A DNA stretch of 64,000 nucleotides from Escherichia coli (GTDB lineage: Bacteria; Pseudomonadota; Gammaproteobacteria; Enterobacterales; Enterobacteriaceae). Location: NCBI RefSeq assembly GCF_024298765.1, contig NZ_CP101212.1. The stretch is one strand, 5' to 3'. How positions within the stretch are numbered: the first letter of the stretch is position 1; each line of letters starts with the position of its first letter. Shown here piece by piece: positions 15,815 through 61,645 of the stretch. The position numbers and the translations under genes were made by a program. The notes under the pieces are model-generated. The model made no database searches. It was given only the letters and a program-made list of their open reading frames with translations, and was not told the DNA's origin.

Positions 15815-15817
15815 TAT

Positions 15818-17880: not shown

Positions 17881-17920
17881 AATGTCTAATCACTGGCTCA
17901 TTATAAATGTCCATATATTG

Positions 17921-17956
17921 AAAAGGCCGCTGCGAAAATCCCTCCCGCAGCGGCCT
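17921..17956 (-). terminator. Rho-independent terminator-like hairpin downstream of the AbiJ-like gene
   Basis: ggccgctgcg...cgcagcggcc stem followed by a T-run on the minus strand. Confidence 0.5.
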
Positions 17957-17984
17957 CTTTAGCATAACGTCATTATGCGAACCA

Positions 17985-23892: not shown

Positions 23893-23996
23893 CATCTAAC
23901 GCATAGTTGAGCGGCGGGCGCAGCCCGTCCGCTTGAACGCCGAGTTAGGCATCAGATGCCCTCGGCGCGGGTCGATGCACTTTTCGCACATGCCGC

Positions 23997-27237: not shown

Positions 27238-27269
27238 CATGACTGGACAGCGCATTGGGTATATCAGGG
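27238..27269 (+). pseudogene. tnpR: tnpR (Tn21-type resolvase) 5' stub cut by IS26
   Basis: atgactggacagcgcattgggtatatcagg encodes MTGQRIGYIR, then the IS26 end begins. Confidence 0.5.
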
Positions 27270-40151: not shown

Positions 40152-40254
40152 TTACTGGACACGTAATGTATTAAAAACACAGTCAGAAGCGGCGGTACCG
40201 TGAATAGCCGCTTTAATTATTTATACTGACATCCTTAATTTTTAAAGAGTATGA

Positions 40255-41484: not shown

Positions 41485-41568
41485 GTTGACCCACAAACAC
41501 TTTCAGGAAACGGTACAGACTTCCCGAATAAATCAAATTGTCACCTGCGGAAAAGGAATAATCATCAG

Positions 41569-42525: not shown

Positions 42526-42528
42526 ACA

Positions 42529-42550
42529 CTGCCCGCTTTTACGCGGGCAG
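42529..42550. terminator. Bidirectional hairpin terminator between convergent iroE and iroN
   Basis: ctgcccgc-tttta-gcgggcag hairpin. Confidence 0.5.
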
Positions 42551-42569
42551 TACGCCTGAAACACTACGA

Positions 42570-44747: not shown

Positions 44748-44843
44748 ACCTATTCCCTAATAAATGCCTAACTTAAAATGTTTGATCGTTAAGCTCACAT
44801 CCTTGCCAGATATTTCTTACTGCCATTATTGTTTTTATATAAG

Positions 44844-44864
44844 AATGATAATTAATATCATTTA
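44844..44864. promoter_or_regulatory. Fur-box-like sequence in the iroN promoter
   Basis: gaatgataattaatatcattt about 100 bp upstream of the iroN start. Confidence 0.45.
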
Positions 44865-45612
44865 GTAAAAGAAAAAGCAATCCCTCACAAGATACATATA
44901 TTGATTTTTCATAAATATCAAATTGATATATAACATATGTTTTTTATTTCATTGCACTTGTCGATCATCGGGAATTTTGTCACAATTTCTCACGGATAGT
45001 GTTCACATTGTTTCTGACCTGCATTTCAGGCGCGGGCGCTGCTTATGTATATAAGGGCCTGTGGTCGACGAATCAGCATAATCAGATCTTCCTGCGAACA
45101 ATTTCTTTCAGCGTATCAGGCAGCACTATCGGATTATCTACGAGCGTTTTTGATTCACATTGTGTGTGAAACTTCATACATCATGATTCGCTTTCCCTAC
45201 TCAGTTCTGATGATTGTTTTTTATTCTATTAACACGGAGTTAAGATTCTACCCTCGGTGTCCTCATTATTAATGAGGAATGCTACCTATCTAAAAACTGA
45301 CCGAAACTTTGGGGCATCCCTGGAGGTTTCCAAGGAGAAAAAGGTGACAGTGATAGTGCCACATTGTGAGGAAATTCCTGAGAAACTCCTGAGAAACTCC
45401 TGGTTCACACACATAATTCAGGAGCTTGCCATAGATAGTAACCAATTGTTTTATATTTTAAGACCATTAAATACGCGGCTACGATAGCGCTTTATATAAT
45501 CATAAACTGTAGAGATAAAATATCTGCTTCTCTGATAACACTAATTGAGTGTCTTAAACTAAGTAATTTCATTTTTCCCCCTTTAAAAGCAATATATGTG
45601 CAATAGTTGAAG

Positions 45613-46647
45613 TTAAAGCTGTGCTGCCAGAGTTGATAATAATTGTTCTGTCTGTTGCCATGATATGCATTCATCAGTAACAGACTGACCATACTCTAGC
45701 GGAAAACTATCGGATTGTTTTCCATCTTGTAAAAAGCTTTCCACCATAATGCCAGCTACATATCCTGGTATTTTTTTCCGATTATCTATAACTTGACGTG
45801 CAACGGAAATTTGCCGTTTAGCCACTTTACCGCTATTACCATGGCTACAATCAATTATCAGACGATGGTTAATGCCCTCATCATGCATTAATTTCACTGC
45901 CTTAGTTATATCAGACAAACCATAGTTAGGTTCTCTACCTCCACGTAATATTAGATGTCCATGTGGATTGCCATCGGTTAATAGTGTAGATATACTATTT
46001 GTTAAAGATGTCATATATACAATATGTTGTTCACGGGCTGCAATAATAGCGTCAATAGCTAAGTTAATATTTCCATCAGTACTGTTTTTAAATCCAACTG
46101 GACAATGTAAACCAGACGCAAGTTGACGATGCGTTTGTGATTCAGTGGTTCTGGCACCAATAGCACCCCAACATATTAAATCAGCAATATAGGGAGTAAG
46201 AAAAGGATCGAGGAATTCTGTAGCGGTTGCGACACGCATCGTTGTGATTGAAGACAAACACTGGCGAGCATATCGTATCCCTTTCTCAACATCATAACTT
46301 CCATTTAGATCAGGATCGTGCATTATTCCCTTCCAGCCTTTACGGGTTCGAGGTTTCTCAAAATAAGTGCGCATTACAATGTACATTTTCGATAAGTACT
46401 TATTCTGTAATACGAACAATCGCTTCGCATAATCAACTGCGGCCTGAACGTCATGGATTGAGCATGGACCAACAATCACAAGTAAGCGAGGATCTTTTCC
46501 CAGCAAAATATTCGCTATAATATCTCGTTGCAGAGAGATCCATGTTACGGTTTCTTCCGATACTGCGATTTCTTTATGAATCTCGCCCACAGTGGGTAAA
46601 CTGCCAAGCAACTTCCCGCGGTAGATTAATTTACTAGCTGACTGCAT
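45613..46647 (-). CDS. 3-deoxy-7-phosphoheptulonate (DAHP) synthase, class I AroF/G/H-like, divergent
   Basis: 344 aa with conserved GPCSIHD, KPRT, GARTTESQTHR, DCSHGNS motifs; visibly AT-rich codon usage. Confidence 0.85.
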   Translation of the reverse strand: MQSASKLIYRGKLLGSLPTVGEIHKEIAVSEETVTWISLQRDIIANILLGKDPRLLVIVGPCSIHDVQAAVDYAKRLFVLQNKYLSKMYIVMRTYFEKPRTRKGWKGIMHDPDLNGSYDVEKGIRYARQCLSSITTMRVATATEFLDPFLTPYIADLICWGAIGARTTESQTHRQLASGLHCPVGFKNSTDGNINLAIDAIIAAREQHIVYMTSLTNSISTLLTDGNPHGHLILRGGREPNYGLSDITKAVKLMHDEGINHRLIIDCSHGNSGKVAKRQISVARQVIDNRKKIPGYVAGIMVESFLQDGKQSDSFPLEYGQSVTDECISWQQTEQLLSTLAAQL

Positions 46648-46696
46648 CTTGTCTCCTAAAAGCGCTATTTCAGACCATCAGTTGCACACAGTAGAT

Positions 46697-46715
46697 GATA
46701 ATGATAATCATTTAC
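46697..46715. promoter_or_regulatory. Near-consensus Fur box upstream of the DAHP synthase gene
   Basis: gataatgataatcatttac against consensus GATAATGATAATCATTATC; about 50 bp upstream of the start. Confidence 0.5.
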
Positions 46716-46855
46716 TGTATAATTGGCAATATATGGGGATTCATAGTCATTTCTGAGATAATATACGTTAGGCCTTCTCTCCCGTACGGAAATCACTTGT
46801 TTTCCGTAAATTACCTGAATCTTAATCCCTGAGCTGCGGCGGTAATGACTCCAAC

Positions 46856-47359
46856 TTATTGATAGTGTTTTATGTTCAGATAATGCCCGATGACTTTGTC
46901 ATGCAGCTCCACCGATTTTGAGAACGACAGCGACTTCCGTCCCAGCCGTGCCAGGTGCTGCCTCAGATTCAGGTTATGCCGCTCAATTCGCTGCGTATAT
47001 CGCTTGCTGATTACGTGCAGCTTTCCCTTCAGGCGGGATTCATACAGCGGCCAGCCATCCGTCATCCATATCACCACGTCAAAGGGTGACAGCAGGCTCA
47101 TAAGACGCCCCAGCGTCGCCATAGTGCGTTCACCGAATACGTGCGCAACAACCGTCTTCCGGAGCCTGTCATACGCGTAAAACAGCCAGCGCTGGCGCGA
47201 TTTAGCCCCGACGTATCCCCACTGTTCGTCCATTTCCGCGCAGACGATGACGTCACTGCCCGGCTGTATGCGCGAGGTTACCGACTGCGGCCTGAGTTTT
47301 TTAAATGGCGGAAAATCGTGTTGAGGCCAACGCCCATAATGCGGGCGGTTGCCCGGCAT
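46856..47359 (-). CDS. insB: IS1 InsB
   Basis: 167 aa. Confidence 0.85.
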
Positions 47360-47553
47360 CCAACGCCATTCATGGCCATATCAATGATTTTCTGGTGCGT
47401 ACCGGGTTGAGAAGCGGTGTAAGTGAACTGCAGTTGCCATGTTTTACGGCAGTGAGAGCAGAGATAGCGCTGATGTCCGGCGGTGCTTTTGCCGTTACGC
47501 ACCACCCCGTCAGTAGCTGAACAGGAGGGACAGCTGATAGAAACAGAAGCCAC
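47278..47553 (-). CDS. insA: IS1 InsA
   Basis: 91 aa. Confidence 0.85.
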
Positions 47554-47801
47554 TGGAGCACCTCAAAAACACCATCATACACTAAATCAGTAAGTTGGCA
47601 GCATCACCGGAACTTCAAAACTGCGCAAAACACGCAAATACGCACAAGAAAGTAGGGCTGCGCTTGGAATTCGGAAAATAAACCACATCAAAACTACTTT
47701 TTAGCCAAATAACGTTTGGGAATCACCAGAATGGTGGGACAACAGCGGTTTTAGTGCCCTAAATCGTACGTTTTCATCCAGTTGCCCCTCAAACCCCATG
47801 T

Positions 47802-48134
47802 TCAAGTCAGAATAGTGGACAGGCGGCCAAGAACTTCGTTCATGATAGTCTCCGGAACCCGTTCGAGTCGTTTTCCGCCCCGTGCTTTCATATCAATTGT
47901 CCGGGGTTGATCGCAACGTACAACACCTGTGGTACGTATGCCAACACCATCCAACGACACCGCAAAGCCGGCAGTGCGGGCAAAATTGCCTCCGCTGGTT
48001 ACGGGCACAACAACAGGCAGGCGGGTCACGCGATTAAAGGCCGCCGGTGTGACAATCAGCACCGGCCGCGTTCCCTGCTGCTCATGACCTGCGGTAGGAT
48101 CAAGCGAGACAAGCCAGATTTCCCCTCTTTCCAT
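47802..48134 (-). CDS. pemK: PemK/Kid (MazF-family) toxin
   Basis: 110 aa from MERGEIWLVSLDPTAGHEQQGTRPVLIV...; track ORF is extended upstream. Confidence 0.85.
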   Translation of the reverse strand: MERGEIWLVSLDPTAGHEQQGTRPVLIVTPAAFNRVTRLPVVVPVTSGGNFARTAGFAVSLDGVGIRTTGVVRCDQPRTIDMKARGGKRLERVPETIMNEVLGRLSTILT

Positions 48135-48135
48135 G

Positions 48136-48393
48136 TCAGATTTCCTCCTGACCAGTCGCCGGTGCATCCAGCCATTCTCGTTCTTCAGCTGATATTTCAG
48201 CATTCGGATCACACTGTGCCAGTAGCTCAGCCAGTGAATATTGCGGGCGTCTGTACGGCTCAACAATCAGCCGGCCATTATCAATGACCATGCCAACTTC
48301 ATTATCTGTGCCCAGAGACAGCGCATTCAGCAGTGCCGGTGGGACGGTCAGCATAACTGAGCCGCCAACCCTCTTCAGTCGGGTGGTATGCAT
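48136..48393 (-). CDS. pemI: PemI/Kis antitoxin
   Basis: 85 aa MHTTRLKRVGGSVMLTVPPALLNALSLG...; adjacent to pemK. Confidence 0.85.
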   Translation of the reverse strand: MHTTRLKRVGGSVMLTVPPALLNALSLGTDNEVGMVIDNGRLIVEPYRRPQYSLAELLAQCDPNAEISAEEREWLDAPATGQEEI

Positions 48394-48485
48394 TCTTCAC
48401 CTCCATAAAAGTTATATTTAAATATAACATCCACTAAAAAAACACACCAGGCTTTAACGCACAATGTTTAATAAAAATATAACTT

Positions 48486-49139
48486 TCAACCAAACAGTAA
48501 ACCCAGCGTGGTTGCTTCCATATGCAGCAATACCGGCAGCAGCAGGCCACCACTTCTGATCCTGGCCACTGATGTAATCAACCCCACCAGGAACAGTTCT
48601 GCCAGTGTCAGCAGGTTCTGATACTGGCTGTGCGCGGCGACGAACAACAACGACGTTATCAGCGCCCCCAGCCACATCGTCCAGCAGTACCGTGAACGGA
48701 AGACGTTCAGCATAATCCCCCGGAACAGCGTTTCCTCATTCAACGGGGCAAGGATAAAGATGGTCAGCAACGTCAGGATCACGTCAGGTATGGACTTATC
48801 GGCAAAAAGTTTCGTCATAAATGGCTCAGCAGGCAGAGCCAGCGCCTTACCGAGCAGAAATACACCGACATACACCACGGCCATCGCACCGACCAGCCAC
48901 GGTACGCCAACGTTGCGCAGCTGACCAACGACCGGTAGCGGAGCTATCCAACGGCGGTATACCAGGAAAACACACAGCAGGTACATCAGAACAGTACCAT
49001 GACTGAAGAACAAATAGTTTTTTCCTGATCCATAAAGCAGAACGGCCTGCTCCATGACAAATCTGGCTCCCCAACTAATGCCCCATGCAGCCAGCATAAC
49101 CAGCATAAACTGCAGATATTGATTACGTGTTTGAATCAT
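48486..49139 (-). CDS. CPBP-family (Abi/CAAX-protease-like) membrane protein at the position of R100 tir
   Basis: 217 aa multi-TM protein with EETLFRG and HSQYQ motifs; lies between ori/repA4 region and pemI as tir does in R100. Confidence 0.55.
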   Translation of the reverse strand: MIQTRNQYLQFMLVMLAAWGISWGARFVMEQAVLLYGSGKNYLFFSHGTVLMYLLCVFLVYRRWIAPLPVVGQLRNVGVPWLVGAMAVVYVGVFLLGKALALPAEPFMTKLFADKSIPDVILTLLTIFILAPLNEETLFRGIMLNVFRSRYCWTMWLGALITSLLFVAAHSQYQNLLTLAELFLVGLITSVARIRSGGLLLPVLLHMEATTLGLLFG

Positions 49140-49850
49140 TGCATCGCCTGTAAATTTTTAACTTGTCCTATTTTTGTCATTACCACGTATATACACATGT
49201 ATAACAATTCAGATATCGTTACCAGGATATGCCGCATCAGCGGCATGGAAGGCGGCACTCTGTTGTTTCATATGATACAGGAGTAAAACCGCCGAAGCCC
49301 GGCGTAAGCCGGTACTGATTGATAGATTTCACCTTACCCATCCCCAGCCCTGCCAGACCATACCCGCTTTCAGCCATGAGAGAGCTTCTGTGCGCGGTCG
49401 GAGTGGTCCCGACGAGGGTTTACCCGAAGTCGGGGCGTATCTCCGCGTTAGCGGGCCGTGAGGGCCGCTTACGAGCGTGTACTGAGAACTTCCAGCGAGA
49501 AGACTGACAGCGATGAAGATGTAGTTACAACATTCATAATTAAAAGCGACTCTGTTCCGGCCCGAAGGGCCGGGGCGGGGCCGCTTTTCAGTTATGAGGG
49601 AGGGGCTTTGTGGTTTCAGTTCTGCGCTGGTTCGGGGTTTTTCTGGAGGTTGGTTTTGTGTGTTGTAACTAAAGTGGCTCCGGTTGGGGCCCGCCGTTTA
49701 CGGTGGGAGGTGCATATCTGTCTGTCCACAGGACAGGCAGTGAATAGGTTTTCTTTTTAAATGAATGTAATTAAGTAGTTTAAAGGAGATATAAACAGGT
49801 GTTTAAAAGATACATTGCACCCTGTAAGGGGTCAGTTTGGATATCGAAAA

Positions 49851-52800
49851 TTATTGTACGTTAAGGCTGTTTTTTGACCTTTCGACTTTAGCTGGTCTTA
49901 GCCGACGAAACTTACCAGAAGCCGGTATCCGGTTGCTTTTCCAGATATAATCACCTGTCAGATTGATGTGTTCCCAGCCCAACGGCGACAAATGCGACAG
50001 CAGTTGCTCGTTGATCTTCACCCCTTTACGCTTCAGGGCATCGACCGCTCTTTCCATATAGACGGTATTCCACAGGGATATGGCAGCCGTCAGCAGCGTC
50101 AGTCCACTGGCGCGATAGCTCTGATTTTCCGGTTTTCTGTCCCTGATTTCTCCCAGTCGGTGCATAAATACCGCACGCGCCAGCGCGTTACGGGCTTCGC
50201 CTTTATTCAGCCCCGCCTGTACCCGCCGACGCAGAGCCGGGTCGCGGAACCAGTCGAGCATAAACAGGGTTCGCTCAATGCGGCCAATTTCTCTCAGTGC
50301 TTTGGCAAGTCCGTTTTGCTTGGGATAGCTGGCAAGCTTTTTCAGCATCAGGGATGCCGTCACGGTTCCCTGCTTTATCGAGGTTGCCAGACGCAGCACT
50401 TCACGCCAGTGGATTTCGATCTCTTTCAGATTCAGGCTGGTCGTTGATATCAGTGACTGAAGCGCCGGGTATTTCTCTGCTTTCCCTTTGATAAACAGTT
50501 TTTTGTCGTGGAGATCCCTGATTCGCGGACAGAACGCAAATCCCAACAGATGCATCAGGGCAAAGACATGATCGGTGAAACCAGCGGTATCGGTGTAATG
50601 TTCCCTGATTTCCAGGTCGCTTTCGTGGTACAGCAAGCCATCGAGAACATGGGTTGAATCCCTGACCCGACTGATTATGCAGGTGTAAAACGGGCTGTAT
50701 TGATCCGAAATATGGGTATAAAACTGACGTCCAGGCTCTTGCCCATATTTCGGGTTAACCTGCCCTGCGTAGCGGCCTGAGCTGCCGGTTCTGAAATTTT
50801 GTCCATCTGATGATGACGTTGTTCCGTCTCCCCAAAATGCCGCCAACGGTCTTTTCCCCTGCGCATTTACCAGCTCTGCAAGAGCGGCTGAATAGGTTTC
50901 GTCACGGATGTACCATGCCTGAATATCTTCGAGTGATGATTTGGTGCTCCCGGGGCAGGCTTCTGCCATTTTGGTCAGGCCAAGATTGATGCCATCCGCA
51001 AGAATGGTGGTGAGGAGCAAGCGGGTATCGGGACGGGTAATGTCATTTTTTATATGCGAAAAATGTCGGGTAAACGTCGTCCAGCTGTTTACCTCATCGA
51101 GAATTTCCGTGATTTTAGGTCGCGGTAGCATGCTGTAAACCAGCTCTGCCAGCGGTGAAACCTGCGCCGGAACGCAGTTATCCAGCGGAGAGACTTTTAC
51201 GCCCCTGTCGGATATTTCCACATCGGGCAGTTCACCAAGGGCAGCCATGGCATTGACCTCTTCAAGTCTGGACTGAAGCAGGGTCATACGGCTGGTAATG
51301 TACTCATGATAATCAGCAGATACGGGCAGTGGCAGTGCCGGTGTGAGTTTGTCAAAGTCCTTCTCGGGTATGAGGTAATCATCAAAATTTTTGTAGCGGC
51401 GCGAGCCTTTAACCCAGATATCCCCGGAGCGCAACGCCCCCTTAAGCTCGCTGAGTGCACAAAACTCATAGTACTGCCGGTCAATACCCACAGGTGTAAT
51501 CACCACCTTGCGCCAGCTTTCAGGGACAAACTCAAGCGGCGCTGCCGCCGGAACTTTACGTGACTGCTTCCGGTACATATCCTTGATCACAACCAGTGCA
51601 TCAGCCAGAGGTTGCGCTGCCGGGGTTGCGACTAACTGTAAAGCGGACAACATGCGTGGGGCATATTTCCGTAATGTGCTGTATTTCTCGGTAATAATAT
51701 GCAGCGGGTCAAAATTATTTTTTCTGGCGAGATGGCGTGTTTCATCCAGACTGGCGACAAATTCAGCCCATGGGAGTATGTTTTCTATTGCGAGCCAGGG
51801 ATCGCCACCGGAATCACGGGCATCAGACAGCGCCTGACCGACATCGATGTACTGCCTCAGTTTTGACTGGATCAGCTTTCCGGTCTGCTGAAGGCGCTCA
51901 GCCTGTGTTCGTTTGGCTTTGCTGAAAAGACTATTCAGCATTCGCTCATGCAGCTCAATCACTTCGTCTGTCAGTGTGGCTCTGGCTTCTTCCAGCACGC
52001 ACACCAGGATCGCATGACGCCGGGCAGCTGAAAATCGGGTCAAATCCCGGCTACTCATCTTTCGGCCTTCCCGCGCCAGTTTCAGCAACCGGTTCTGGTG
52101 AATGGTACGATCTATACCTTCAGGTAATGCCAGCGATTCAATGCTGCTGAGCCGATCAAGATGTTGCAGCACGTTCTTACCATTGATTTTACCCGGCGGT
52201 TGCAGAAGCCATGTCAGCCTGGAAGGCTGATTATCTGATGACTCAAGTAAATGATCCAGGGCATCCCTGTGAGCCGGAGTTAACGGGGCATTCAGGGTCT
52301 GAAATACGATTTTATCGCCGCCTGCCATGACTTCAGCACAGGTACGCTCCACGACATCAATCGCGGGGATTATCACGTTGTTCTGCCGGAGATAGACAAG
52401 TAACTCTTCGGCTAGGAGAATGCCTTTATCGGTGCGCGTCGCCATCGATAACAGGTGCGTAATACAGTCCTGCTGTATTTTGCCGGTGAACGCCTTTACG
52501 CCAAGATAGCGGTACAGTTCGGTTAAATGCTCACGCCGGGTCGTATCCCGGCCGGAAAGGTAAGCAGGCCAGAGATCCCCGGTAAGCTTTAGCCTGCTGG
52601 CGATATGCTTCAGCAGCGCATCAGAGGGAGAGATTTTTTTATCCGGGGCAAAGCCGACATTTTTCAGATAGCAAAGAAGGACGGCAAAACCAAAACGGCT
52701 GGCGGGTTTACGGTGAGCACTGATAAGCGCCAGATCATGCTCACTGAAATAGGCCATTCGGGTCAGCGTTAACTCATCGTCCGGTAATGCCAGTAATGAT

Positions 52801-52880
52801 TCTCTTTCCGACAGAGAAAGAATCTGCCTCCTTGCCATATAGTTTTCCTCATAAATTATTCGATGCGTTATTTTTAACAA
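49851..52880 (-). CDS. tnpA: Tn3-family transposase TnpA
   Basis: 1009 aa; C-terminal region with GDGTTSSSDGQ...HYTDTAGFTDHVFAL motifs; 3' end runs into the IR. Confidence 0.85.
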   Translation of the reverse strand: MLKITHRIIYEENYMARRQILSLSERESLLALPDDELTLTRMAYFSEHDLALISAHRKPASRFGFAVLLCYLKNVGFAPDKKISPSDALLKHIASRLKLTGDLWPAYLSGRDTTRREHLTELYRYLGVKAFTGKIQQDCITHLLSMATRTDKGILLAEELLVYLRQNNVIIPAIDVVERTCAEVMAGGDKIVFQTLNAPLTPAHRDALDHLLESSDNQPSRLTWLLQPPGKINGKNVLQHLDRLSSIESLALPEGIDRTIHQNRLLKLAREGRKMSSRDLTRFSAARRHAILVCVLEEARATLTDEVIELHERMLNSLFSKAKRTQAERLQQTGKLIQSKLRQYIDVGQALSDARDSGGDPWLAIENILPWAEFVASLDETRHLARKNNFDPLHIITEKYSTLRKYAPRMLSALQLVATPAAQPLADALVVIKDMYRKQSRKVPAAAPLEFVPESWRKVVITPVGIDRQYYEFCALSELKGALRSGDIWVKGSRRYKNFDDYLIPEKDFDKLTPALPLPVSADYHEYITSRMTLLQSRLEEVNAMAALGELPDVEISDRGVKVSPLDNCVPAQVSPLAELVYSMLPRPKITEILDEVNSWTTFTRHFSHIKNDITRPDTRLLLTTILADGINLGLTKMAEACPGSTKSSLEDIQAWYIRDETYSAALAELVNAQGKRPLAAFWGDGTTSSSDGQNFRTGSSGRYAGQVNPKYGQEPGRQFYTHISDQYSPFYTCIISRVRDSTHVLDGLLYHESDLEIREHYTDTAGFTDHVFALMHLLGFAFCPRIRDLHDKKLFIKGKAEKYPALQSLISTTSLNLKEIEIHWREVLRLATSIKQGTVTASLMLKKLASYPKQNGLAKALREIGRIERTLFMLDWFRDPALRRRVQAGLNKGEARNALARAVFMHRLGEIRDRKPENQSYRASGLTLLTAAISLWNTVYMERAVDALKRKGVKINEQLLSHLSPLGWEHINLTGDYIWKSNRIPASGKFRRLRPAKVERSKNSLNVQ

Positions 52881-53099
52881 AAATGGTTATCGCATAAGGG
52901 TATACCCTGACACCATAATCTAAACGTGACGGCACACAATGAACGACATAGCCTATATGCGATAGATTAAATGCAATAACCTAAATGCGGTAATGCGGTG
53001 AAAAAATGTTCATCAGCACTTATTTAAGGGCATAGACGGAAGATCAGTTCACCGATCGGGCAAAAGAGATGCTGGAGCAGTTTGTTTAGGAGCGGGGGC

Positions 53100-53410
53100 A
53101 TAAAATAGCCAGTTACTACCGGGAGAATATCAGCGGTACAAAACTTGACCGACCGGAACTGGGTCGCTTACTGATGGACAGTCACCGCAATGATATTTTG
53201 CTGGTCGAGCAAATTGACCGCCAGCGCCAAAAGCAGGGAGTTGAACTCGCACATACGCTGGGTAAATATCAGGGAAAACAGGTCGCTCAGGAACGGCATC
53301 AAAAGGTACTTTACTACCGGCAGGTCAAGAAAGAAACGGCAGATGCAACAGGGTACAGCACCTCCCAGATATGCCACATTCAGGCACTGTACCGACAATC
53401 AGAATCATGA
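53100..53410 (+). pseudogene. Serine resolvase (tnpR) remnant
   Basis: Fragmentary translation ...DSHRNDILLVEQIDRQRQ... resembles resolvase core but no intact ORF. Confidence 0.35.
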
Positions 53411-53537
53411 GACTTTGGTTAAGCAGGTATGCAGAGCAGAATTTATAATCTATTTCATTCAGACTGATTAAATGGATTACAGAAGCTAAAGGGTCTTCTT
53501 TGTTCAACATGAAACCAGAAGACCCTTACTATTATTA

Positions 53538-54373
53538 TTAAAAAAGCAATTGGGTCAGATACCCCATAAGTATGGCCATACCCAGGATTACTGTCAGAAA
53601 AGCGACTATCATAGGCATTCTGAACATTGATTTAAGCAGTATTACTTCTGTCAAACTCGCTCCAGCACTACCGATTATCAAGGCCATTAATGCCCCCAGG
53701 CCCATTCCTTTAGTCATCAGCACTGATGCAAGTGGTATCACTGCCTCTGCGCGGATATACAACGGAATACCAACAACTGCACTCAGCGGTATGGCTAAGG
53801 GATTATCTGCTCCGGCATGAGCTGCAATCCACTCTGAAGGGATAAAGCCATAAATAAATGAACCTATTAATACACTTAACAAAAGATAAGGCAGAACATC
53901 CTTAAACTGCTGTAAGGCATCTTTCATAGCTAACTTTATTGGGCCAGAGGTGGTATTCGTTGTGAGATTCACATTGCCCAGATTCTCGCTGCTGCAACAG
54001 CTAACAGCTGGTTGTTCAGATGATATTGATGAACAACACGCTGATACGTTCTGCTCGTTCTTTACCGTCCTTAAGTTAATTATGGGGTTCGCTGATGAAG
54101 TACAGCAACTCGTTTTTAAAGGCAATTGAGTCGAGCTAGTGCTGCAACAACTGGAACCCGCCGACGTTTTTACCGAAGCTTCGGAATCATCGCATTTCGT
54201 GGTGCAACCACTTGATGCTGAGTTTTTGTGATCAACAATATGACGTTCAAATCCTAGTAAATCCAATACGATACTGGCAAGGACTGAGACACCGGCAGCG
54301 ATGATCGCGTACAACAAAGTTACTTTCCAGCCAAAGGTAACCCACATTAACCCCACGATAATGGGATTAAGCG
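53538..54373 (-). pseudogene. ArsP-like permease, C-terminal part (downstream of IS66 insertion)
   Basis: Continues in frame from the N-terminal part across the 8-bp duplication (…SPLLN|PIIVGLMWVTFG…); contains a Cys/Ser-rich loop with repeated vicinal CC. Confidence 0.55.
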
Positions 54374-54402
54374 TAAGCGGCTCGTCAGAACCGTATTGAT
54401 AT

Positions 54403-55974
54403 TTACTGAGAGCTCAGATCAACTTTCCAGGGCAACAGATCGCGTACCCGGTTTGCCGGCCAGTCCTGGATATGTTCAATGACGTAACGCAGCCACTTTT
54501 CTGGCTCCACATTGTTCAGACGGCATGTGCCGATCAGCGAGTACAACACCGCCGCATGTTCACCACCGCTGTCGGAACCCGCGAACATCCAGTTTTTCCG
54601 GCCTACGGCCACTCCCCGTAAGGCGTTCTCTGCGATGTTGTTGTCGATTTCCACCCAGCCATTACTGCAGTACACGTTCAGTGCATCCCACTGTTTCAGC
54701 AGGTATGCGAACGCTTTTGCCGTATCTGAGTGACGCGACAGTGTTTTCATCTGTTGCTGTATCCAGTCATACAGTGACTGCATCAGTGGCGCGGCTCTGG
54801 CTTTTCTTGCCGCCAGACGCTGTTCTGCTGAACAGCCCCGGACCTCTGCCTCGATGGCATACAGTTCACCGATACGCTGCAGGGCTTCCGTGGTGATGTC
54901 GGTGGGCGCTCTTGCATGCACATCGTGGATTTTTCTCCGGGCATGAGCCATACACGCGGCTTCCGTTATTCTGCCGGATTCGTATAACACCCGGTAACCA
55001 CCGTAAGCATCGGCCTGAAGCACACCGCTGTAACCGGCCAGGTGATTTTGTGGATGGATACCTTTCCGGTCCGGACTGTACGCGAACCAGACCGCCGGGG
55101 GCATCTGTGAACCGGCGTTGCGATCATCACGGACGTAGACCCACAGCCGGGCTGTCCGGGTTTTACCGCTGCCCGGCTCCTGGACCGGGACGGGGATATC
55201 ATCGGCATGGACTTTACCGGGCATCAGCACATACTGGCGCAGGACGTCATACAGCGGCTCCAGCAGTTCAGCAACAGCACCTGTCCAGCGCCCCAGTGTG
55301 GCACGGCTCAGCTCCACGCCCTGGCGACGGTATATTTCTGACTGGCGGTATAACGGCAGATGGTCTGCATATTTCCCGGTGACAACATGGGCCAGAAGCC
55401 CCGCTCCGGCATAACTGCGTGCAATGGGTTTTGAAGGCACCGGTGCCTGCACGATATGGTCGCACCGGCAACAGGCCTGTTTCGGACGTTGTGTTTCGAT
55501 AACCTTAAAGGCACTGCTGATAAGCTCCAGTTGCTCTGACACATCACATCCCAGTGGACTGAGTTCACCACCACAGGCCGGACAGCATTCCTCTTCCGGC
55601 CGGATGACCCGGGGTTCACGGGGAAGTGAAGCCGGTAACGGTTTACGGGCTGAAGACTGGCGCAGGGGGGATGGCAGTACCGGGTCATATTGCTCACCCA
55701 GCGTTTCTGCCATTTCTTCCTGAAGTGCGCTGATTCGCTCCTGTGCTTCCTGTATCTGCCGTTCGGTTTTTGCGCGAAGTTTTTCTGAGCTTTTACCGAA
55801 CTGCATACGCTGCAGTTTCGCAACCAGCGCCTTCAGCCGGTTGATTTCGGAAGCATAAGCCGCCACCCGCTGTGAGAGCAGGCGGTTGTATTCGGCCATC
55901 TGGCGGATGGTGTCCTGTTGCGTCTGCAACAGTGCCTGCAGGCGGGCATTCTCATGAGCAAGTGAGGTGTCCAT
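54403..55974 (-). CDS. IS66-family transposase TnpC
   Basis: 523 aa with zinc-finger-like CPACGG...CRCDH and DDE domain. Confidence 0.85.
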
Positions 55975-55993
55975 ATCCTCACTTTACAACGGG

Positions 55994-56341
55994 TTATATA
56001 CGGATTCCAGCGCGTTCCGTTCGTTTCGGGTGCTTCCAGTCGATGCCCTCGAGAAGCATGGATAACTGAGCCGGAGTAAGGTGCACCTTGCCGTCACGGG
56101 TGACTGGCCAGACGAAGCGGCCCCGCTCCAGGCGTTTGGTGAAGAGGCACAGTCCGTCACTGTCAGCCCACAACACTTTTATCTGGTCACCCCGGCGTCC
56201 GCGGAAGATGAACAGGTGTCCGGAGAACGGGTCATCCTTCAGGACGTTCTGAACTTTTGAGGCCAGGCCGTTAAAGCCATTTCGCATATCGGTGATACCT
56301 GCAACCAGCCAGATACGCGAACCTGCAGGGAGAGATATCAT
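55994..56341 (-). CDS. IS66-family TnpB
   Basis: 115 aa. Confidence 0.8.
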   Translation of the reverse strand: MISLPAGSRIWLVAGITDMRNGFNGLASKVQNVLKDDPFSGHLFIFRGRRGDQIKVLWADSDGLCLFTKRLERGRFVWPVTRDGKVHLTPAQLSMLLEGIDWKHPKRTERAGIRI

Positions 56342-57018
56342 CAGTGGCTGCTCCCTTTTATTTCGCGGATAAGTGTCTGTAATAACGCCGGCGTCAGTTT
56401 ACCTTTAAGCCTGAGAGTTCCGGCCGGCAGAACCAGCTCACAACACAGACTGTCGGACGGTGTATTTATCTGCTCTGGTTCCTGTGCGGGGGCCGGGATT
56501 TTATTATCCGGCTCCGGCGTTAACGTCACGGGAAGCAGTGCCGGCATATTTTTTCCGGAAGGCAGCAGGCCACCTTTCCGGTATTGATGGCGCCAGTTGA
56601 AGAGCAGGTTATCGTTGATTCCGTTTTCCCGGGCGATCTGCGCCACACAGGCTCCGGGCTGCAGTGACTGCTCCACTAAGGCGATTTTAAACTCATAAGG
56701 GAAGTTGGGCCGCCGGGGACGTTTTTTTACCACGGGGGCTTCGGATATAACGGTGCTTTCAGGACGTACGACTGGTACCGTGGAAAATTGTCCGTAAAGG
56801 CAGGCATCAAGTTCCTGCTCCGACATGCCTGCGGGCAAAGGCCACGAAAGGCCAGCTCTCCGAAAGCGCACGAACATACTACAAACTGTTGATTTTGATA
56901 CACCCAGGCGACGCCCGGCCACAACCCGGGGTAAATGTTCTTCAAAGTGAAGACGTAAAGCTTCAGTGATCCAGGTCCGGTGTTTCATACGATAGTGTCC
57001 ATTAAAAATGATGGACAT
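56341..57018 (-). CDS. IS66-family accessory protein TnpA (orf1)
   Basis: 225 aa, HTH-containing. Confidence 0.7.
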   Translation of the reverse strand: MSIIFNGHYRMKHRTWITEALRLHFEEHLPRVVAGRRLGVSKSTVCSMFVRFRRAGLSWPLPAGMSEQELDACLYGQFSTVPVVRPESTVISEAPVVKKRPRRPNFPYEFKIALVEQSLQPGACVAQIARENGINDNLLFNWRHQYRKGGLLPSGKNMPALLPVTLTPEPDNKIPAPAQEPEQINTPSDSLCCELVLPAGTLRLKGKLTPALLQTLIREIKGSSH

Positions 57019-57071
57019 TATTTTTGTAGAGCCGGAGGAAACAGACCAGACGGTTTAAATGAGCCGGTTAC

Positions 57072-57396
57072 GATTAAGCAACGGTGAAACAAACAAAAAA
57101 GTGAGTGTCGGACCAAACCCTGCTTTCGCCGACAACAACCCTCGTAGCATTGGAATTGTTGAGCAACTACAGAAAGGGGTAACGGCTCCCAACAACGAGG
57201 CCAGCAGGTAGCCTTTTCCTTTTTTCGCCCCTATCAATTGCTGGATTTTATGGTCCGGGACCTTTTGCCTTATCAGGCTCACACCGGCACTGATGACAAT
57301 AAACAGCAAAGATAGCTCGACGGCCAAAAACAAAAACATCTCTGCGGCATCTTGCAGCATAGAAATCCAACTATTCATACTAAACCCTCTTGACAA
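57072..57396 (-). pseudogene. ArsP-like permease, N-terminal part with TPFCSCSTIP motif
   Basis: 108 codons ending at the IS66 junction. Confidence 0.55.
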
Positions 57397-57483
57397 AATC
57401 TACGTTTCTAGAATAATCGAAATATAATTCTGGTCAAGATATTTCTGGTATTATCGAAATATCATTAGACAGAGGGTTGTCAC

Positions 57484-57807
57484 ATGCAACTGGAAGAAGT
57501 AGCTAAAGCACTAAAAGAGCTGGGTCACCCGACCCGTTTGTTCATATTCAAACATCTTGTAAAAGCTGGAGAACAAGGTTTGCCTGTAGGTGAATTGCAA
57601 AAGCAGCTTGGCATTCCCTCATCAACGTTAAGTCATCATATTTCAGCCCTGGTATCAGTAGGGCTCGTCACACAAAACCGGGAGAGTCGAACGCTCATGT
57701 GTGTCTCTCAATACGAAATACTGGAAGCTATCATCGAATTCTTACGTGAAGAGTGCTGTGTAAACAGTAAAACAGATGTTGCGGAACACGCTGGCAAAAA
57801 TGGATAA
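57484..57807 (+). CDS. ArsR/SmtB-family metalloregulatory repressor
   Basis: 107 aa winged-HTH protein divergent from the permease gene; dyad tcgaaatat...atatttc in the shared intergenic region. Confidence 0.7.
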   Translation: MQLEEVAKALKELGHPTRLFIFKHLVKAGEQGLPVGELQKQLGIPSSTLSHHISALVSVGLVTQNRESRTLMCVSQYEILEAIIEFLREECCVNSKTDVAEHAGKNG

Positions 57808-57908
57808 GTAACCGGAAAACTCATAACTGTCATGATTGACGAAAGCTGCATCGGGTGATGCTGCCAACTTACTGATTTAGTGTATGATGGTGTTTTTGAG
57901 GTGCTCCA

Positions 57909-58184
57909 GTGGCTTCTGTTTCTATCAGCTGTCCCTCCTGTTCAGCTACTGACGGGGTGGTGCGTAACGGCAAAAGCACTGCCGGACACCAGCGCTATCT
58001 CTGCTCTCACTGCCGTAAAACATGGCAACTGCAGTTCACTTACACCGCTTCTCAACCCGGTACGCACCAGAAAATCATTGATATGGCCATGAATGGCGTT
58101 GGATGCCGGGCAACTGCCCGCATTATGGGCGTTGGCCTCAACACGGTTTTACGTCACTTAAAAAACTCAGGCCGCAGTCGGTAA
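57909..58184 (+). CDS. insA: IS1 InsA
   Basis: 91 aa. Confidence 0.85.
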
Positions 58185-58606
58185 CCTCGCGCATACAACC
58201 GGGCAGTGATGTGATTGTCTGCGCTGAAATGGACGAACAGTGGGGCTACGTCGGTGCTAAATCACGTCAGCGCTGGCTGTTTTACGCGTATGACAGGATA
58301 CGGAGGACAGTTGTGGCGCACGTTTTCGGTGAACGCACTCTGGCCACACTGGAGCGTCTTCTGAGCCTGCTGTCACCCTTTGACGTGGTGATATGGATGA
58401 CGGATGGCTGGCCGCTGTATGAATCCCGCCTGAAGGGAAAGCTGCACGTAATCAGCAAGCGATATACGCAGCGAATTGAGCGGCATAACCTGAATCTGAG
58501 GCAGCACCTGGCACGGCTGGGACGGAAGTCGCTGTCGTTCTCAAAATCGGTGGAGCTGCATGACAAAGTCATCGGGCATTATCTGAACATAAAACACTAT
58601 CAATAA
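58103..58606 (+). CDS. insB: IS1 InsB
   Basis: 167 aa. Confidence 0.85.
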
Positions 58607-58999
58607 GTTGGAGTCATTACCCGCATGATTCAGCAGATAAATCCTTGAAAGCAGGTACTCAGCCCTCAGTGAACAGAATAAGTCAGCGTAATGTACTTTA
58701 GTGCTGACCACGTGCTCTGTATGATACAGAATCTATCTACTATAAACGAAAATACAGCACGATCAATGCTCACACTCTATATGGGACGTTCGTACCTGGA
58801 CATGATTATCTGTGTTCAATGTCCCCGCATGACCGTCTTAACATCCAGAATATTACGTTTCCAAAAAAACCAGAAATGATAAAAAATGAGCTTAACGTAC
58901 AATAATTTTCGATATCCAAACTGACCCCTGTAAGGCTGGCGCCTGGCGCTTTATGACATGAACGGTTGTAACCTTATGGGGAAGTCCATTGCAGTTAAA

Positions 59000-59008
59000 T
59001 GTGGATAA
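59000..59008 (-). promoter_or_regulatory. DnaA box (TTATCCACA on minus strand), probable RepFIIA oriR
   Basis: tgtggataa on plus strand, downstream of repA1 in the position expected for oriR. Confidence 0.4.
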
Positions 59009-59111
59009 GCAAAATTCCCCGTCTGTGAGGCGTGTTTTGTATCAAAAACAGGGGGGGCCAGATGCACCAGAAGGGTAAGCGTGCAGCAAGAACCGTATTG
59101 ACGGGGATGTG

Positions 59112-60650
59112 TTATTCAGTCGGCAGTGCTACGCGCCAGGGGAGCAGTTCGCCGACCCGGTTTATCGGCCAGTCGGCTATGACGTCAAGGACATAGCGGA
59201 GGTAGCTTTCTGGCTCCACTCCGTTCAGTTTGCACGTCCCGATCAGGCTGTACAGCAGCGCTCCCCGCTCTCCTCCATGATCCGAACCGAAGAACAGGTA
59301 GTTTTTGCGGCCCAGACTGACCATCCGCAACGCATTTTCAGCGATGTTATTGTCCGCCTCAGCCCAGCCATCATCTGCATAGTACGTCAGCGCCGGCCAC
59401 TGGTTCAGGGCGTATGCGAACGCTTTCGCCAGTTCTGAGTGTCGCGACAGGGTTTTCATCTTTTCACGCAGCCAGCTTTCCAGGGATTTCAGCAGCGGTT
59501 TCGTTTTCAACTGACGTTCGGCAAGGCGCTGCTCCGCCGTCATTCCCCTTATCTCTGCCTCGATGGCGTACAGTTCGCCGATCCGTTTCAGCGCTTCCTC
59601 CGTCAGGGCTGACGGGGTGCGAACGTGCACATCGTGGATTTTACGGCGGGCGTGAGCCCAACAGGCGGCTTCCGTTATCCGGCCATCCCGGTACAGCTCG
59701 TTGAACCCGGCGTATGCATCCGCCTGCAGTACACCACTGAACCCCGCAAGATGGGTCTGCGGATGGATGCCTTTTCTGTCCGGGCTGTAAGCGAACCACA
59801 CCGCCGGCGCCAGCGTTGACCCGGCGTTACGGTCGTCACGAACGTAGGTCCATAACCGCCCGGTCTTCGTTTTCTTATTGCCTGGCAACAGCACCGGGAC
59901 AGGCGTGTCATCAGCATGGAGCTTACCGTCAGTCAGCACATAGTCCTGAAGCGCTTCTTCCAGCGGTGACAGTAGCCGGCAGCATGCATCCACCCAGCCC
60001 GACAGCAGTGAACGACTCAGCTCCACGCCCTGGCGGCCGTACATTTCAGACTGGCGGTACAGCGGGGTGTGCTCTGCATACTTTGAGATCAGCACGCGGG
60101 CCAGCAGCCCCGGTCCTGCGATACCCCGCTCGATGGGCCGTGAAGGCGCGGGGGCCTGCACGATGGCATCGCACTGAGTACAGGCATGCTTTTCACGTAC
60201 AGTCCGGATAACCCGGAAGGCGCTGCGCATCAGCTCCAGCTGTTCGGCGGCATCCTCACCCAGATAGCTCAGCGAGCCTCCACATTCCGGGCAGCATGAC
60301 GCTGCCGGCAGCAGCCGTTTTTCATCGCGGGGGAGTGATTCGGGGAACGGTTTGCGGGTGCGGGTTTGACGCAGCGGGCGCTGCACGGCCGGGTCGTCAA
60401 CCCGACCGGTAAGGGTATCACTTTCTTTCTGAAGTGCCTTCAGGTCAGCTTCCATCTGTGCGATACGACGGGAGACTTTTTCCGAGCGGCTGCCGAAGTT
60501 CATCCGGCGCAGCTTATCCAGCTGTGCCTGCAGATGGTCTATTTCGCGTTCACGCTCGTTCAGCTTTTCCTGCAGGGCACGGTTCAGCGCCTCCTGTTCG
60601 GCAAGGAGACGTTTCAGTGCATTGATATCGTCAGGAAGTGAGCTGCTCAT
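59112..60650 (-). CDS. IS66-family transposase TnpC
   Basis: 512 aa, paralogous to 54403..55974. Confidence 0.85.
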
Positions 60651-60698
60651 ACCGGGTATATTACCAGGCTCATTCAGCGTCGACCAGGATAAAGAGGC

Positions 60699-61046
60699 TT
60701 ACAACATAGTCAGGGACGTAAGCAGTCTTTTAGGCTGCCGCCAGTCGATACCTTCCAGCAGCATCGCCAGCTGTGCCGGTGTGAGGAACACTTTGCCATC
60801 CCGGGCTGACGGCCAGGCGAAGCGGCCGCGCTCCAGCCGTTTGGTCAGCAGACACAGTCCATCGCCGGTAGACCAGAGGAGCTTTACCTGACTGCCATTA
60901 CGCCCACGGAAGATAAAAACGTGACCTGACATCGGATCGTCTTTCAGCGTCGTCTGCACCTTTGCCGCCAGGCCGTTGAAGCCGTTTCTCATATCGGTGA
61001 TGCCAGCGACCAGCCAGATCTTTGTCCCTGATGGTAATGGGATCAA
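60699..61046 (-). CDS. IS66-family TnpB
   Basis: 115 aa. Confidence 0.8.
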   Translation of the reverse strand: MIPLPSGTKIWLVAGITDMRNGFNGLAAKVQTTLKDDPMSGHVFIFRGRNGSQVKLLWSTGDGLCLLTKRLERGRFAWPSARDGKVFLTPAQLAMLLEGIDWRQPKRLLTSLTML

Positions 61047-61447
61047 CGTTTGAGCTCCCGTATCAGCAGGTTCAGGATATTTTCACTGATGGCACCATTC
61101 AGACGGAGTGATCCGTGCCGGAACGTCACTTCACAGCTGATATTGAGTGATTCAGGTGTCGCAGTAGCTACAGGTTGTGACCGGGGGGAGGTTGTAGGGA
61201 CAACATCTTCGGCATCAAGTGTTATCGGGAGCAGCTCAGGCACGTTGTTTTCTGTTGTTGAAGGAGGACGTAGTTTTCCTTCGCGCCAGTACTGGCGCCA
61301 CTTGAACAGCAAATTATCGTTGATCCCATGCTCACGAGCGAGTTGCGCTACGGAGATCTCTGGTCGATGCGAGAGTTCAACCATTTTGATTTTGAACTCA
61401 ACGGGATAATTAGGGCTTTTTTTACGCACTGCGGTTAATGATTTCAT
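61043..61447 (-). CDS. IS66-family accessory protein TnpA (orf1)
   Basis: 134 aa. Confidence 0.7.
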   Translation of the reverse strand: MKSLTAVRKKSPNYPVEFKIKMVELSHRPEISVAQLAREHGINDNLLFKWRQYWREGKLRPPSTTENNVPELLPITLDAEDVVPTTSPRSQPVATATPESLNISCEVTFRHGSLRLNGAISENILNLLIRELKR

Positions 61448-61645
61448 GGATAGCGTCCACCATATTTGGTGTCCACTATTCTCTCAGGAATTTCAGGATC
61501 TGCCAGACGGTGCTGAGACGACGCTTACCCAGAAGGTGGATGATGAGGTTGTTTTTTGTATGAGGTGCTGCTTTTTTGTTCGCTGGCAGGCTTCAGGCGT
61601 GCGAATGCCTCCGGTGCGGGCCGGATTATTCAGAAGAGGTCACTT

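What the first reader, a model, noticed from the sequence alone, without database searches (positions are those of the whole stretch)
46841..58621. Inverted IS1 pair without target duplications spanning the pemIK to arsR segment
The two IS1 copies are in opposite orientation about 10 kb apart. The 9 bp flanking each copy do not match (agctgcggc / ggaacttca for the first; gctgcatcg / cgcatgatt for the second). This suggests one or both arrived by recombination, or that the intervening segment has been inverted, and it may still invert.
Basis: seen in the sequence. Interest (0 to 1): 0.3.

Follow-up and report, generated by a model that had tools for sequence, protein, structure and literature searches.

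The report
Two unrelated IS1 copies, no inversion
The two oppositely oriented IS1 elements are real and lack target duplications, but they have separate histories: one is the old R100 plasmid IS1 trimmed by deletions on both sides, the other rides inside a widespread Tn3-family transposon, and the DNA between them has not been inverted, so this is ordinary plasmid mosaicism.

Summary
IS1-L (46841-47608, minus) and IS1-R (57854-58621, plus) are complete 768-bp elements with 27 mismatches. Neither has a 9-bp target duplication, and the flanks do not match as reverse complements across copies.

The inversion reading is not supported.
- IS1-L is 768/768 identical to IS1a and IS1b of R100.
- Its inner junction beside pemK is shared by at least 1,603 IncFII plasmids. 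It sits in a nested deletion series: R100 keeps 1,375 bp, pO83_CORR 116 bp, and this window 0.
- Its outer junction is unique. ColV plasmids run straight through that point. A ColV/FII relative (NZ_CP020934.1) is collinear with the window apart from 40,774 bp that end exactly at the IS1 tip. That is the pattern of an IS1 adjacent deletion.
- IS1-R lies inside a Tn3-family transposon (49828-58928) with 38-bp inverted repeats and a 5-bp duplication, TGTAA. The same transposon with identical IS1 junctions sits in other replicons, each with its own 5-bp duplication. IS1-R therefore arrived as a passenger, already without a duplication.

The segment between the copies is collinear with reference backbones. 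Future inversion through the 260-bp and 126-bp identical tracts is possible but untested. This is ordinary and low interest.

The parts
45613..46647 (-). 3-deoxy-7-phosphoheptulonate (DAHP) synthase gene, the last gene of the ColV-type iro module before the IS1-L junction
   Evidence: NCBIfam aroFGH/AroH hits. Window 39890-46840 is 99.5-99.96% identical to pAPEC-O1-ColBM and pAPEC-1.
46832..46840 (.). Left flank of IS1-L (AGCTGCGGC), the novel deletion junction. ColV plasmids continue here with TAGCTGTGGAACTC...
   Evidence: No record in PLSDB or in 5,426 complete E. coli genomes has this DAHP|IS1 junction.
46841..47608 (-). IS1-L, 768 bp, IRR at 46841-46863 and IRL at 47586-47608. insA is 47278-47553 and insB 46856-47359, both on the minus strand.
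   Evidence: It is 768/768 identical to R100 IS1a and IS1b and to the IS1 of NZ_CP020934.1.
47609..49827 (-). IncFII (R100-type) backbone: pemK 47802-48134, pemI 48136-48393, CPBP protease gene 48486-49139. The first 9 bp, GGAACTTCA, are the inner flank of IS1-L.
   Evidence: The region is 99.2-99.6% identical and collinear with R100, L004 and L008. The IS1|flank junction is in at least 1,603 PLSDB records.
49828..58928 (.). Tn3-family transposon (9,101 bp, made of the 6,394-bp unit plus ISCro1). It has 38-bp terminal inverted repeats at 49828-49865 and 58891-58928 and a 5-bp duplication TGTAA at 49823-49827 and 58929-58933.
   Evidence: The empty site is seen in L004 and L008. The same unit has its own 5-bp duplications in L001 (TAGAA), L003 (GATTA) and L007 (TTGTA).
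49851..52880 (-). Tn3-family transposase gene tnpA
   Evidence: NF033527, 1129 bits
54373..57071 (-). ISCro1 (IS66 family, 2,699 bp) inserted in the transposon's permease gene, with an 8-bp duplication GATTAAGC
   Evidence: Absent from the other copies of the transposon.
57484..57807 (+). arsR/SmtB-family regulator gene, the last intact passenger gene before IS1-R
   Evidence: In L003 and L010 it is followed by arsH, a sigma-70 gene, arsD and arsA instead of IS1.
57854..58621 (+). IS1-R, 768 bp, IRL at 57854-57876 and IRR at 58599-58621. insA is 57909-58184 and insB 58103-58606. It is a variant isoform.
   Evidence: It is identical, junctions included, in L001, L002 and L007. The arsR|IS1 junction is in 219 PLSDB records.
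58622..58928 (.). 307-bp right-end remnant of the Tn3-family transposon, including its 38-bp inverted repeat. It begins with the outer flank of IS1-R, CGCATGATT.
   Evidence: The same IS1|CGCATGATT junction is in L003, although the other side of that IS1 differs.
59075..61528 (-). Second IS66-family element (2,454 bp) with an 8-bp duplication CCAGAAGG, lying between the transposon and the IncFII repA gene

Best explanation
The two IS1 copies are unrelated elements that ended up 10 kb apart in opposite orientation. Each lost or never had a matching duplication because of events at its own ends, not because of an exchange between them. IS1-L descends from the IS1 that bounds the Tn2670 resistance determinant of R100/NR1. 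In R100 the 9-bp duplication (AAACAGGGA) flanks the whole composite transposon, so a single arm never had matching flanks. On its inner (IRL) side, 1,375 bp of backbone were later removed, starting exactly at the IS1 tip. That junction is now inherited by well over a thousand IncFII plasmids. On its outer (IRR) side, in this plasmid lineage only, about 41 kb were removed, again ending exactly at the IS1 tip. By comparison with a relative, the lost DNA held the colicin V genes and the resistance region. This fused IS1 to a point 193 bp beyond the DAHP synthase gene of the ColV iro module. The most likely mechanism is IS1 transposase-mediated intramolecular transposition with the deletion outcome, that is an 'adjacent deletion' (inferred). 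IS1-R is cargo. It sits inside a 6.4-kb Tn3-family transposon between a truncated ars cluster and the transposon's right end. It already lacked a duplication before that transposon inserted here and made its own 5-bp duplication (shown). The DNA between the two IS1 copies is in the ancestral order and orientation (shown). Homologous recombination between the copies could invert it in future (inferred, untested).
For: - **IS1-L identity and R100 context:** IS1-L is 768/768 identical to R100 IS1a and IS1b, and R100's Tn2670 is flanked by AAACAGGGA.
- **Inner junction:** the same IRL|GGAACTTCA junction is in L004 and L008 and in at least 1,603 PLSDB records.
- **Nested series on the IRL side:** R100 keeps 1,375 bp, pO83_CORR keeps exactly the last 116 bp of those, and the window keeps 0.
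- **Outer junction:** 355 ColV-type plasmid records match up to window 46840. The three checked continue uninterrupted beyond it. No record has DAHP|IS1.
- **Size of the deletion:** NZ_CP020934.1 is collinear and in the same orientation on both sides. The window lacks its positions 4805-45578 (locus coordinates), which end at the first base of IS1.
- **Deletion rather than inversion:** the ColV flank abuts IRR while IRL keeps its old junction. That is the deletion product of intramolecular transposition, not the inversion product (my reasoning from the standard replicative-transposition model).
- **IS1-R as passenger:** the transposon has 38-bp inverted repeats and a TGTAA duplication, with the empty site seen in L004 and L008. 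Identical 6,394-bp units with identical IS1 junctions carry different 5-bp duplications in L001 and L007. A longer form in L003 shares the IRR junction but joins IRL to a truncated arsA.
- **Natural continuation after arsR:** it is arsH, in both L003 and L010.
- **Literature:** Tn2670-derived regions with IS1/backbone signature junctions, and their acquisition by a ColV virulence plasmid, are described in PMC8765060. PMC11708052 names IS-IS recombination and adjacent deletion as the usual causes of missing duplications.
Against: - No precursor of this exact plasmid is available. The 41-kb figure comes from a relative, not the true ancestor.
- An adjacent deletion cannot be told apart by sequence from recombination with a second IS1 that was once inserted at the DAHP site.
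- For IS1-R no IS1-free ancestor of the transposon was found.
- The IS1 in the longer L003 form differs from IS1-R at 25 positions. A simple nested deletion therefore also needs a conversion event, or the junction arose by recombination between two IS1 copies.
- The window is only part of the plasmid. A further IS1 and the 'missing' DNA could lie outside it.
Confidence: 0.7

Rival explanations
1. Same history, but the duplication-less junctions were made by RecA-dependent recombination between two IS1 copies in direct orientation, not by transposase-mediated adjacent deletion. One such copy would have been inserted at the DAHP site and one just after arsR.
For: The final structure is identical under both mechanisms. 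IS1-R is a patchwork relative to the IS1B-type copy at the same right junction in L003, with 25 differences confined to positions 127-508 and an identical last 260 bp. That fits a crossover in the shared 3' part. PMC11708052 lists IS-IS recombination as a frequent cause of missing duplications.
Against: No record among 72,556 plasmids and 5,426 E. coli genomes has an IS1 at the DAHP site. The three nested endpoints on the IRL side of the R100-type IS1 would each need a separate, never-observed IS1 insertion.
Confidence: 0.2
2. One reading: the 10-kb segment between the copies was inverted by recombination between them, which exchanged the flanks and so hid the original duplications.
For: The copies are inverted and share 260-bp and 126-bp identical tracts. 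The left flank of IS1-L matches the reverse complement of the left flank of IS1-R at 6 of 9 positions.
Against: The other predicted flank match is 2/9. The IS1-L|pemK junction and both IS1-R junctions exist unchanged in hundreds to thousands of other plasmids that lack the partner copy. The backbone and transposon orders are ancestral.
Confidence: 0.02
3. The pair is an IS1 composite transposon with inverted arms (46841-58621) that inserted here as one unit.
For: Both outer ends are intact IRR termini and both transposase frames are intact.
Against: The outer flanks AGCTGCGGC and CGCATGATT do not match. The right outer flank is internal to a Tn3-family transposon, and the inner DNA is resident IncFII backbone continuous with repA. 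No other record contains the unit.
Confidence: 0.01
4. The DAHP|IS1-L|pemK arrangement is an assembly collapse. The real plasmid would have two IS1 copies with about 40 kb between them that the assembler merged.
For: The left junction is unique in the public collections. IS1 is a classic assembly-breaking repeat.
Against: This would still need a real IS1 at the DAHP site, which is never seen elsewhere. All other mobile-element junctions in the region are clean. No cva sequence and no resistance-region sequence apart from the IS26/integron block at 23-28 kb appears anywhere in the 64-kb window.
Confidence: 0.06

Closest known systems
IS1b of Tn2670 (the r-determinant) in plasmid R100/NR1, and the Tn2670-derived resistance regions of IncFII and ColV plasmids
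   Same: IS1-L is 768/768 identical and has the same orientation relative to pemK, pemI and repA. The literature uses the IS1/backbone junctions as lineage signatures and records acquisition of this region by a ColV plasmid (PMC8765060).
   Different: Both neighbours of the IS1 have gone. The 1,375-bp DUF262 segment on the backbone side is missing. So is the whole resistance determinant on the other side, replaced by the ColV iro/DAHP-synthase module.
IS-mediated adjacent deletion, first described for IS1 in the gal region of E. coli by Reif and Saedler in 1975 (cited from my own knowledge)
   Same: The IS is retained. The deletion begins exactly at an IS terminus, the other junction is untouched, there is no duplication, and nested endpoints occur in relatives.
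   Different: Inferred here from comparison only. Transposase dependence is not shown.
The 6.4-kb Tn3-family transposon (tnpA, disrupted resolvase gene, permease gene, arsR, IS1) found in pVM01 and many E. coli and Salmonella plasmids
   Same: Identical ends, gene order and IS1 junctions, and movement with 5-bp duplications.
   Different: The window copy has ISCro1 in the permease gene and sits at a site not seen in PLSDB. I could not find a published name for this transposon.
Tn1681-type composite transposons with inverted IS1 arms (cited from my own knowledge)
   Same: Two complete IS1 copies in inverted orientation around a segment.
   Different: There is no duplication around the unit, and the unit is not found elsewhere. 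The arms have separate origins and differ by 3.5%.

Membership tests
IS1 insertion sequence | 768-bp element with about 23-bp imperfect terminal inverted repeats (IRL GGTGATGCTGCCAACTTACTGAT, IRR GGTAATGACTCCAACTTATTGAT) | tested here: met
   Both copies are exactly 768 bp and both ends are exact
IS1 insertion sequence | insA and insB' frames with the A6C -1 frameshift motif | tested here: met
   Intact 91-aa and 167-aa frames and TTAAAAAAC in both copies
IS1 insertion sequence | 9-bp (8-11 bp) target duplication at a primary insertion | tested here: not met
   No direct match at either copy. This is explained by secondary events and does not affect identification as IS1.
Inversion between inverted IS copies | Reciprocal flank exchange: the left flank of copy 1 equals the reverse complement of the left flank of copy 2, and likewise for the right flanks | tested here: not met
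   6/9 and 2/9 matches
Inversion between inverted IS copies | The interior segment is reversed relative to related replicons | tested here: not met
   Collinear with R100, L004 and L008, and with other copies of the transposon
IS1 composite transposon | A 9-bp duplication flanking the whole unit, and the same unit present in other contexts | tested here: not met
   The outer flanks differ. No record covers at least 80% of the region.
IS adjacent deletion | The deletion endpoint coincides with an IS terminus, the opposite junction is unchanged, and a relative retains the intervening DNA in the same orientation | tested here: met
   On the IS1-L IRR side, 40,774 bp relative to NZ_CP020934.1. On the IRL side, the 1,375 / 116 / 0 bp series.
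IS adjacent deletion | Dependence on the IS transposase rather than on homologous recombination | not testable with these tools
   Needs genetics (recA and insAB' mutants)
IS adjacent deletion (IS1-R left junction) | Same IS and same fixed junction, with variable endpoints on the other side | tested here: inconclusive
   L003 shares the IRR junction and has a different IRL junction in arsA, but its IS1 differs at 25 positions
Tn3-family transposon | 38-bp terminal inverted repeats, a 5-bp target duplication and a Tn3-type transposase | tested here: met
Tn3-family transposon | Functional resolvase and res site | not tested
   PGAP marks the recombinase gene in other copies as a pseudogene with an internal stop. 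I did not examine it further.

The most novel reading that the evidence does not exclude
Both IS1 copies have intact ends and transposase frames and share identical tracts of 260 and 126 bp. The plasmid population may therefore contain a minority isomer with the pemIK-to-arsR segment inverted, or the pair may occasionally move as an inverted-arm composite transposon. That unit would carry a toxin-antitoxin module and most of a Tn3-family transposon.
Probability: 0.1. Interest if true: 0.2.

Novelty: already known. Interest (0 to 1): 0.08.

Why it matters
It matters little beyond annotation. It is a worked example of why an IS without a target duplication should first be compared with relatives before an inversion is invoked. 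It shows that this ColV-type virulence plasmid appears to have lost the colicin V region, and the resistance region that neighbours IS1 in relatives, through a deletion ending at IS1. It also documents a recurrent nested deletion series beside the R100-type IS1, which can serve as a lineage marker for IncFII plasmids.

Tried and rejected
- **IS1-free ancestor, exact flank scan:** I scanned one genome per species for the 32 bp next to IS1-R. There were 0 hits.
- **IS1-free ancestor, inverted-repeat scan:** a scan for the transposon's inverted repeat gave 76 loci across Enterobacterales and other groups, but only the terminal ~48 bp are shared. The original IS1-R target therefore could not be reconstructed.
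- **Citrobacter plasmid L010:** it carries the ars cluster intact but lacks the transposon's tnpA and right end. It shows what naturally follows arsR but is not an ancestor.
- **Closer relatives of the window:** no record has the whole region, the DAHP|IS1|pemK arrangement or the transposon at this site.
- **Plasmids FCI54 and pCRST009:** both have different arrangements. They only helped to name ISCro1.
- **The 6/9 reverse-complement match between the two left flanks:** rejected as chance, because both contain AGCTGC and the reciprocal pair is 2/9.
- **Replicative inversion by IS1 itself:** rejected, because the copies differ at 27 positions and the ColV flank abuts IRR, not IRL.
Full report
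**Observation**

The window holds exactly two IS1 sequences.
- IS1-L occupies 46841-47608, with IRR at the left and IRL at the right, so it lies on the minus strand.
- IS1-R occupies 57854-58621 on the plus strand.
- Each is 768 bp with exact terminal repeats, intact insA and insB frames and the A6C frameshift motif.
- 10,245 bp lie between them, and the two IRL ends face inward.
No direct match exists at either copy.
- The cross comparisons an inversion would predict give 6/9 (left against the reverse complement of left) and 2/9 (right against the reverse complement of right).
- The copies differ at 27 positions, all between IS1 positions 127 and 508. The longest identical tracts are 260 bp (509-768), 126 bp (1-126) and 125 bp (137-261).
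- Three other mobile elements in the same 15 kb have perfect duplications (TGTAA, GATTAAGC, CCAGAAGG). The missing IS1 duplications are therefore real features, not sequence errors.

**What surrounds the copies**

Left of IS1-L is a ColV-type virulence module: iroN at 42570-44747 and a DAHP synthase gene at 45613-46647. It is 99.5-99.96% identical to pAPEC-O1-ColBM and pAPEC-1 up to base 46840.

Right of IS1-L is IncFII backbone: pemK, pemI and a CPBP protease gene. It is collinear with R100 and many other plasmids up to 49827.

At 49828-58928 sits a Tn3-family transposon. It has perfect 38-bp inverted repeats (GGGGTCAGTTTGGATATCGAAAATTATTGTACGTTAAG) and a 5-bp duplication, TGTAA. It contains:
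- tnpA;
- a recombinase gene that PGAP marks as a pseudogene with an internal stop in other copies;
- a permease gene, here split by ISCro1;
- arsR;
- IS1-R;
- a 307-bp right end.

The backbone then resumes (58929-59074). It is interrupted by a second IS66-family element (59075-61528) and continues into IncFII repA.

**IS1-L**

IS1-L is 768/768 identical to both IS1 copies of R100. In R100 these bound the composite transposon Tn2670, and the 9-bp duplication AAACAGGGA flanks the whole unit. A single arm therefore never had matching flanks.

The inner junction (IRL|GGAACTTCAAAACTGCG, about 190 bp from pemK) is found unchanged in L004 and L008 and in at least 1,603 PLSDB records. In R100 itself the IS1 lies 1,375 bp further out, with a DUF262 gene between. 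In pO83_CORR exactly the last 116 bp of those 1,375 remain. This gives three nested endpoints that all start at the IS1 tip.

The outer junction (…GAGCTGCGGC|IRR) is unique.
- 355 ColV-type records match up to that base.
- The three I read continue with TAGCTGTGGAACTC…, followed by the DUF6404 gene and, further on, cvaA, cvaB, cvaC and cvi (L005 and L008 also carry yacAB, truncated in L008).
- No record in PLSDB or in 5,426 complete E. coli genomes has DAHP|IS1.

Plasmid NZ_CP020934.1 (strain HB-Coli0) carries both modules in the same relative orientation. The cva genes, an IS26-rich resistance region and the Tn21 mer operon lie between them, and its IS1 still has the R100-type IRR junction. 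Aligned to the window, it matches up to locus position 4804 and resumes at 45576-45579, the first base of IS1. The window therefore equals that type of plasmid minus 40,774 bp that end exactly at IRR.

In the standard model of intramolecular replicative transposition, the deletion product joins the distant target to the attacking end and leaves the other end's junction intact. The inversion product would instead put a second, inverted IS1 with its IRL against the ColV flank. The window shows the deletion pattern (my inference).

**IS1-R**

The 6,394-bp form of the transposon, with IS1-R and both its junctions identical base for base, occurs in three other places:
- a P1-like plasmid, inside a creatininase gene, with duplication TAGAA;
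- pVM01, with duplication TTGTA;
- pCP53-38k, with no duplication there.

The arsR|IS1 junction is present in 219 PLSDB records. The insertion at TGTAA in this backbone is in none. IS1-R therefore entered this plasmid as cargo, and its lack of a duplication predates its arrival.

A 9,032-bp form sits in the chromosome of E. coli PC6 (duplication GATTA). It reads arsR, arsH, a sigma-70 gene, arsD and a truncated arsA, then IS1, then the identical IRR junction |CGCATGATT…. In a Citrobacter plasmid the same arsR is likewise followed by arsH and a complete arsA. The left junction of IS1-R therefore truncates an ars cluster.

Whether this happened by adjacent deletion or by recombination between two IS1 copies is open. 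The IS1 in the long form is IS1B-type and differs from IS1-R at 25 central positions. No IS1-free ancestor was found.

**Verdict on the interpretation**

The inference that secondary events made the junctions also stands. The specific idea of an inversion of the pemIK-to-arsR segment is contradicted by collinearity on every side.

The pair is not a composite transposon either: the outer flanks differ and the unit occurs nowhere else.

Future inversion by homologous recombination is possible. It would break no gene, since the crossover falls within IS1. It would separate the Tn3-family transposon's right end from the rest of the element. Nothing in a single assembled sequence speaks to whether this occurs.

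**Comparison with the known**

Everything here belongs to described categories:
- Tn2670-derived IS1/backbone junctions in IncFII plasmids, and acquisition of that region by a ColV virulence plasmid (PMC8765060);
- missing duplications caused by IS-IS recombination or adjacent deletion (PMC11708052);
- passenger insertion sequences inside Tn3-family transposons.

Only the exact DAHP|IS1 junction and the exact transposon insertion site are new, and these are of lineage-marker value only.

Scores: interest 0.08; novelty: already known.

Noticed in passing
window 54373-57071: ISCro1 (IS66 family, 2,699 bp) is inserted in the permease gene of the Tn3-family transposon with an 8-bp duplication GATTAAGC. 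The other copies of the transposon examined lack it.
   Followed up: partly
window 59075-61528: A second IS66-family element (2,454 bp, duplication CCAGAAGG) is about 84% identical to an ISEc8-family copy. It sits between the transposon and IncFII repA, near where the replication origin should lie. It and ISCro1 account for the 71% direct repeat 54812-55111 / 59521-59820.
   Followed up: partly
window 57854-58621 (IS1-R): IS1-R is a patchwork. 25 of its 27 differences from the R100-type IS1 lie in positions 262-508 (about 10% divergence), and the last 260 bp are identical. This central variant at 99% identity or more is in only 187 PLSDB records, close to the 219 that carry the arsR|IS1 junction. 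The isoform therefore seems largely confined to this transposon.
   Followed up: partly
L011 (R100), L089 (pO83_CORR), window 47609: There is a nested deletion series beside the R100-type IS1 on the pemK side. R100 keeps 1,375 bp (a DUF262 gene), pO83_CORR keeps the last 116 bp, and the window and most IncFII plasmids keep none. This could serve as a lineage marker.
   Followed up: yes
window 23073-23893 and 27269-28089: Two IS26 copies (820 bp each; reported arms 821 nt) in inverted orientation, 100% identical, flank a class 1 integron fragment (intI1, dfrA17). That fragment is reversed in orientation relative to its copy in NZ_CP020934.1.
   Followed up: no
window 1-64000 versus L008 4805-45578: The colicin V genes (cvaA, cvaB, cvaC, cvi) that follow the DAHP synthase gene in ColV plasmids are absent from the whole window. 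This looks like a ColV-type virulence plasmid that has lost colicin V, unless the genes lie outside the window.
   Followed up: partly
L013-L088: The transposon's 38-bp inverted repeat occurs exactly in 76 loci from many Enterobacterales and also Vibrio, Aliivibrio, Aeromonas, Photobacterium and a Solidesulfovibrio. Only about 48 terminal bp are shared, which points to a large, little-named Tn3 subfamily with varied cargo.
   Followed up: no
L002 (pCP53-38k) 11995-18388: This copy of the 6,394-bp transposon has no 5-bp duplication (TATAA versus TTACT), which suggests a rearrangement at one end in that plasmid.
   Followed up: no
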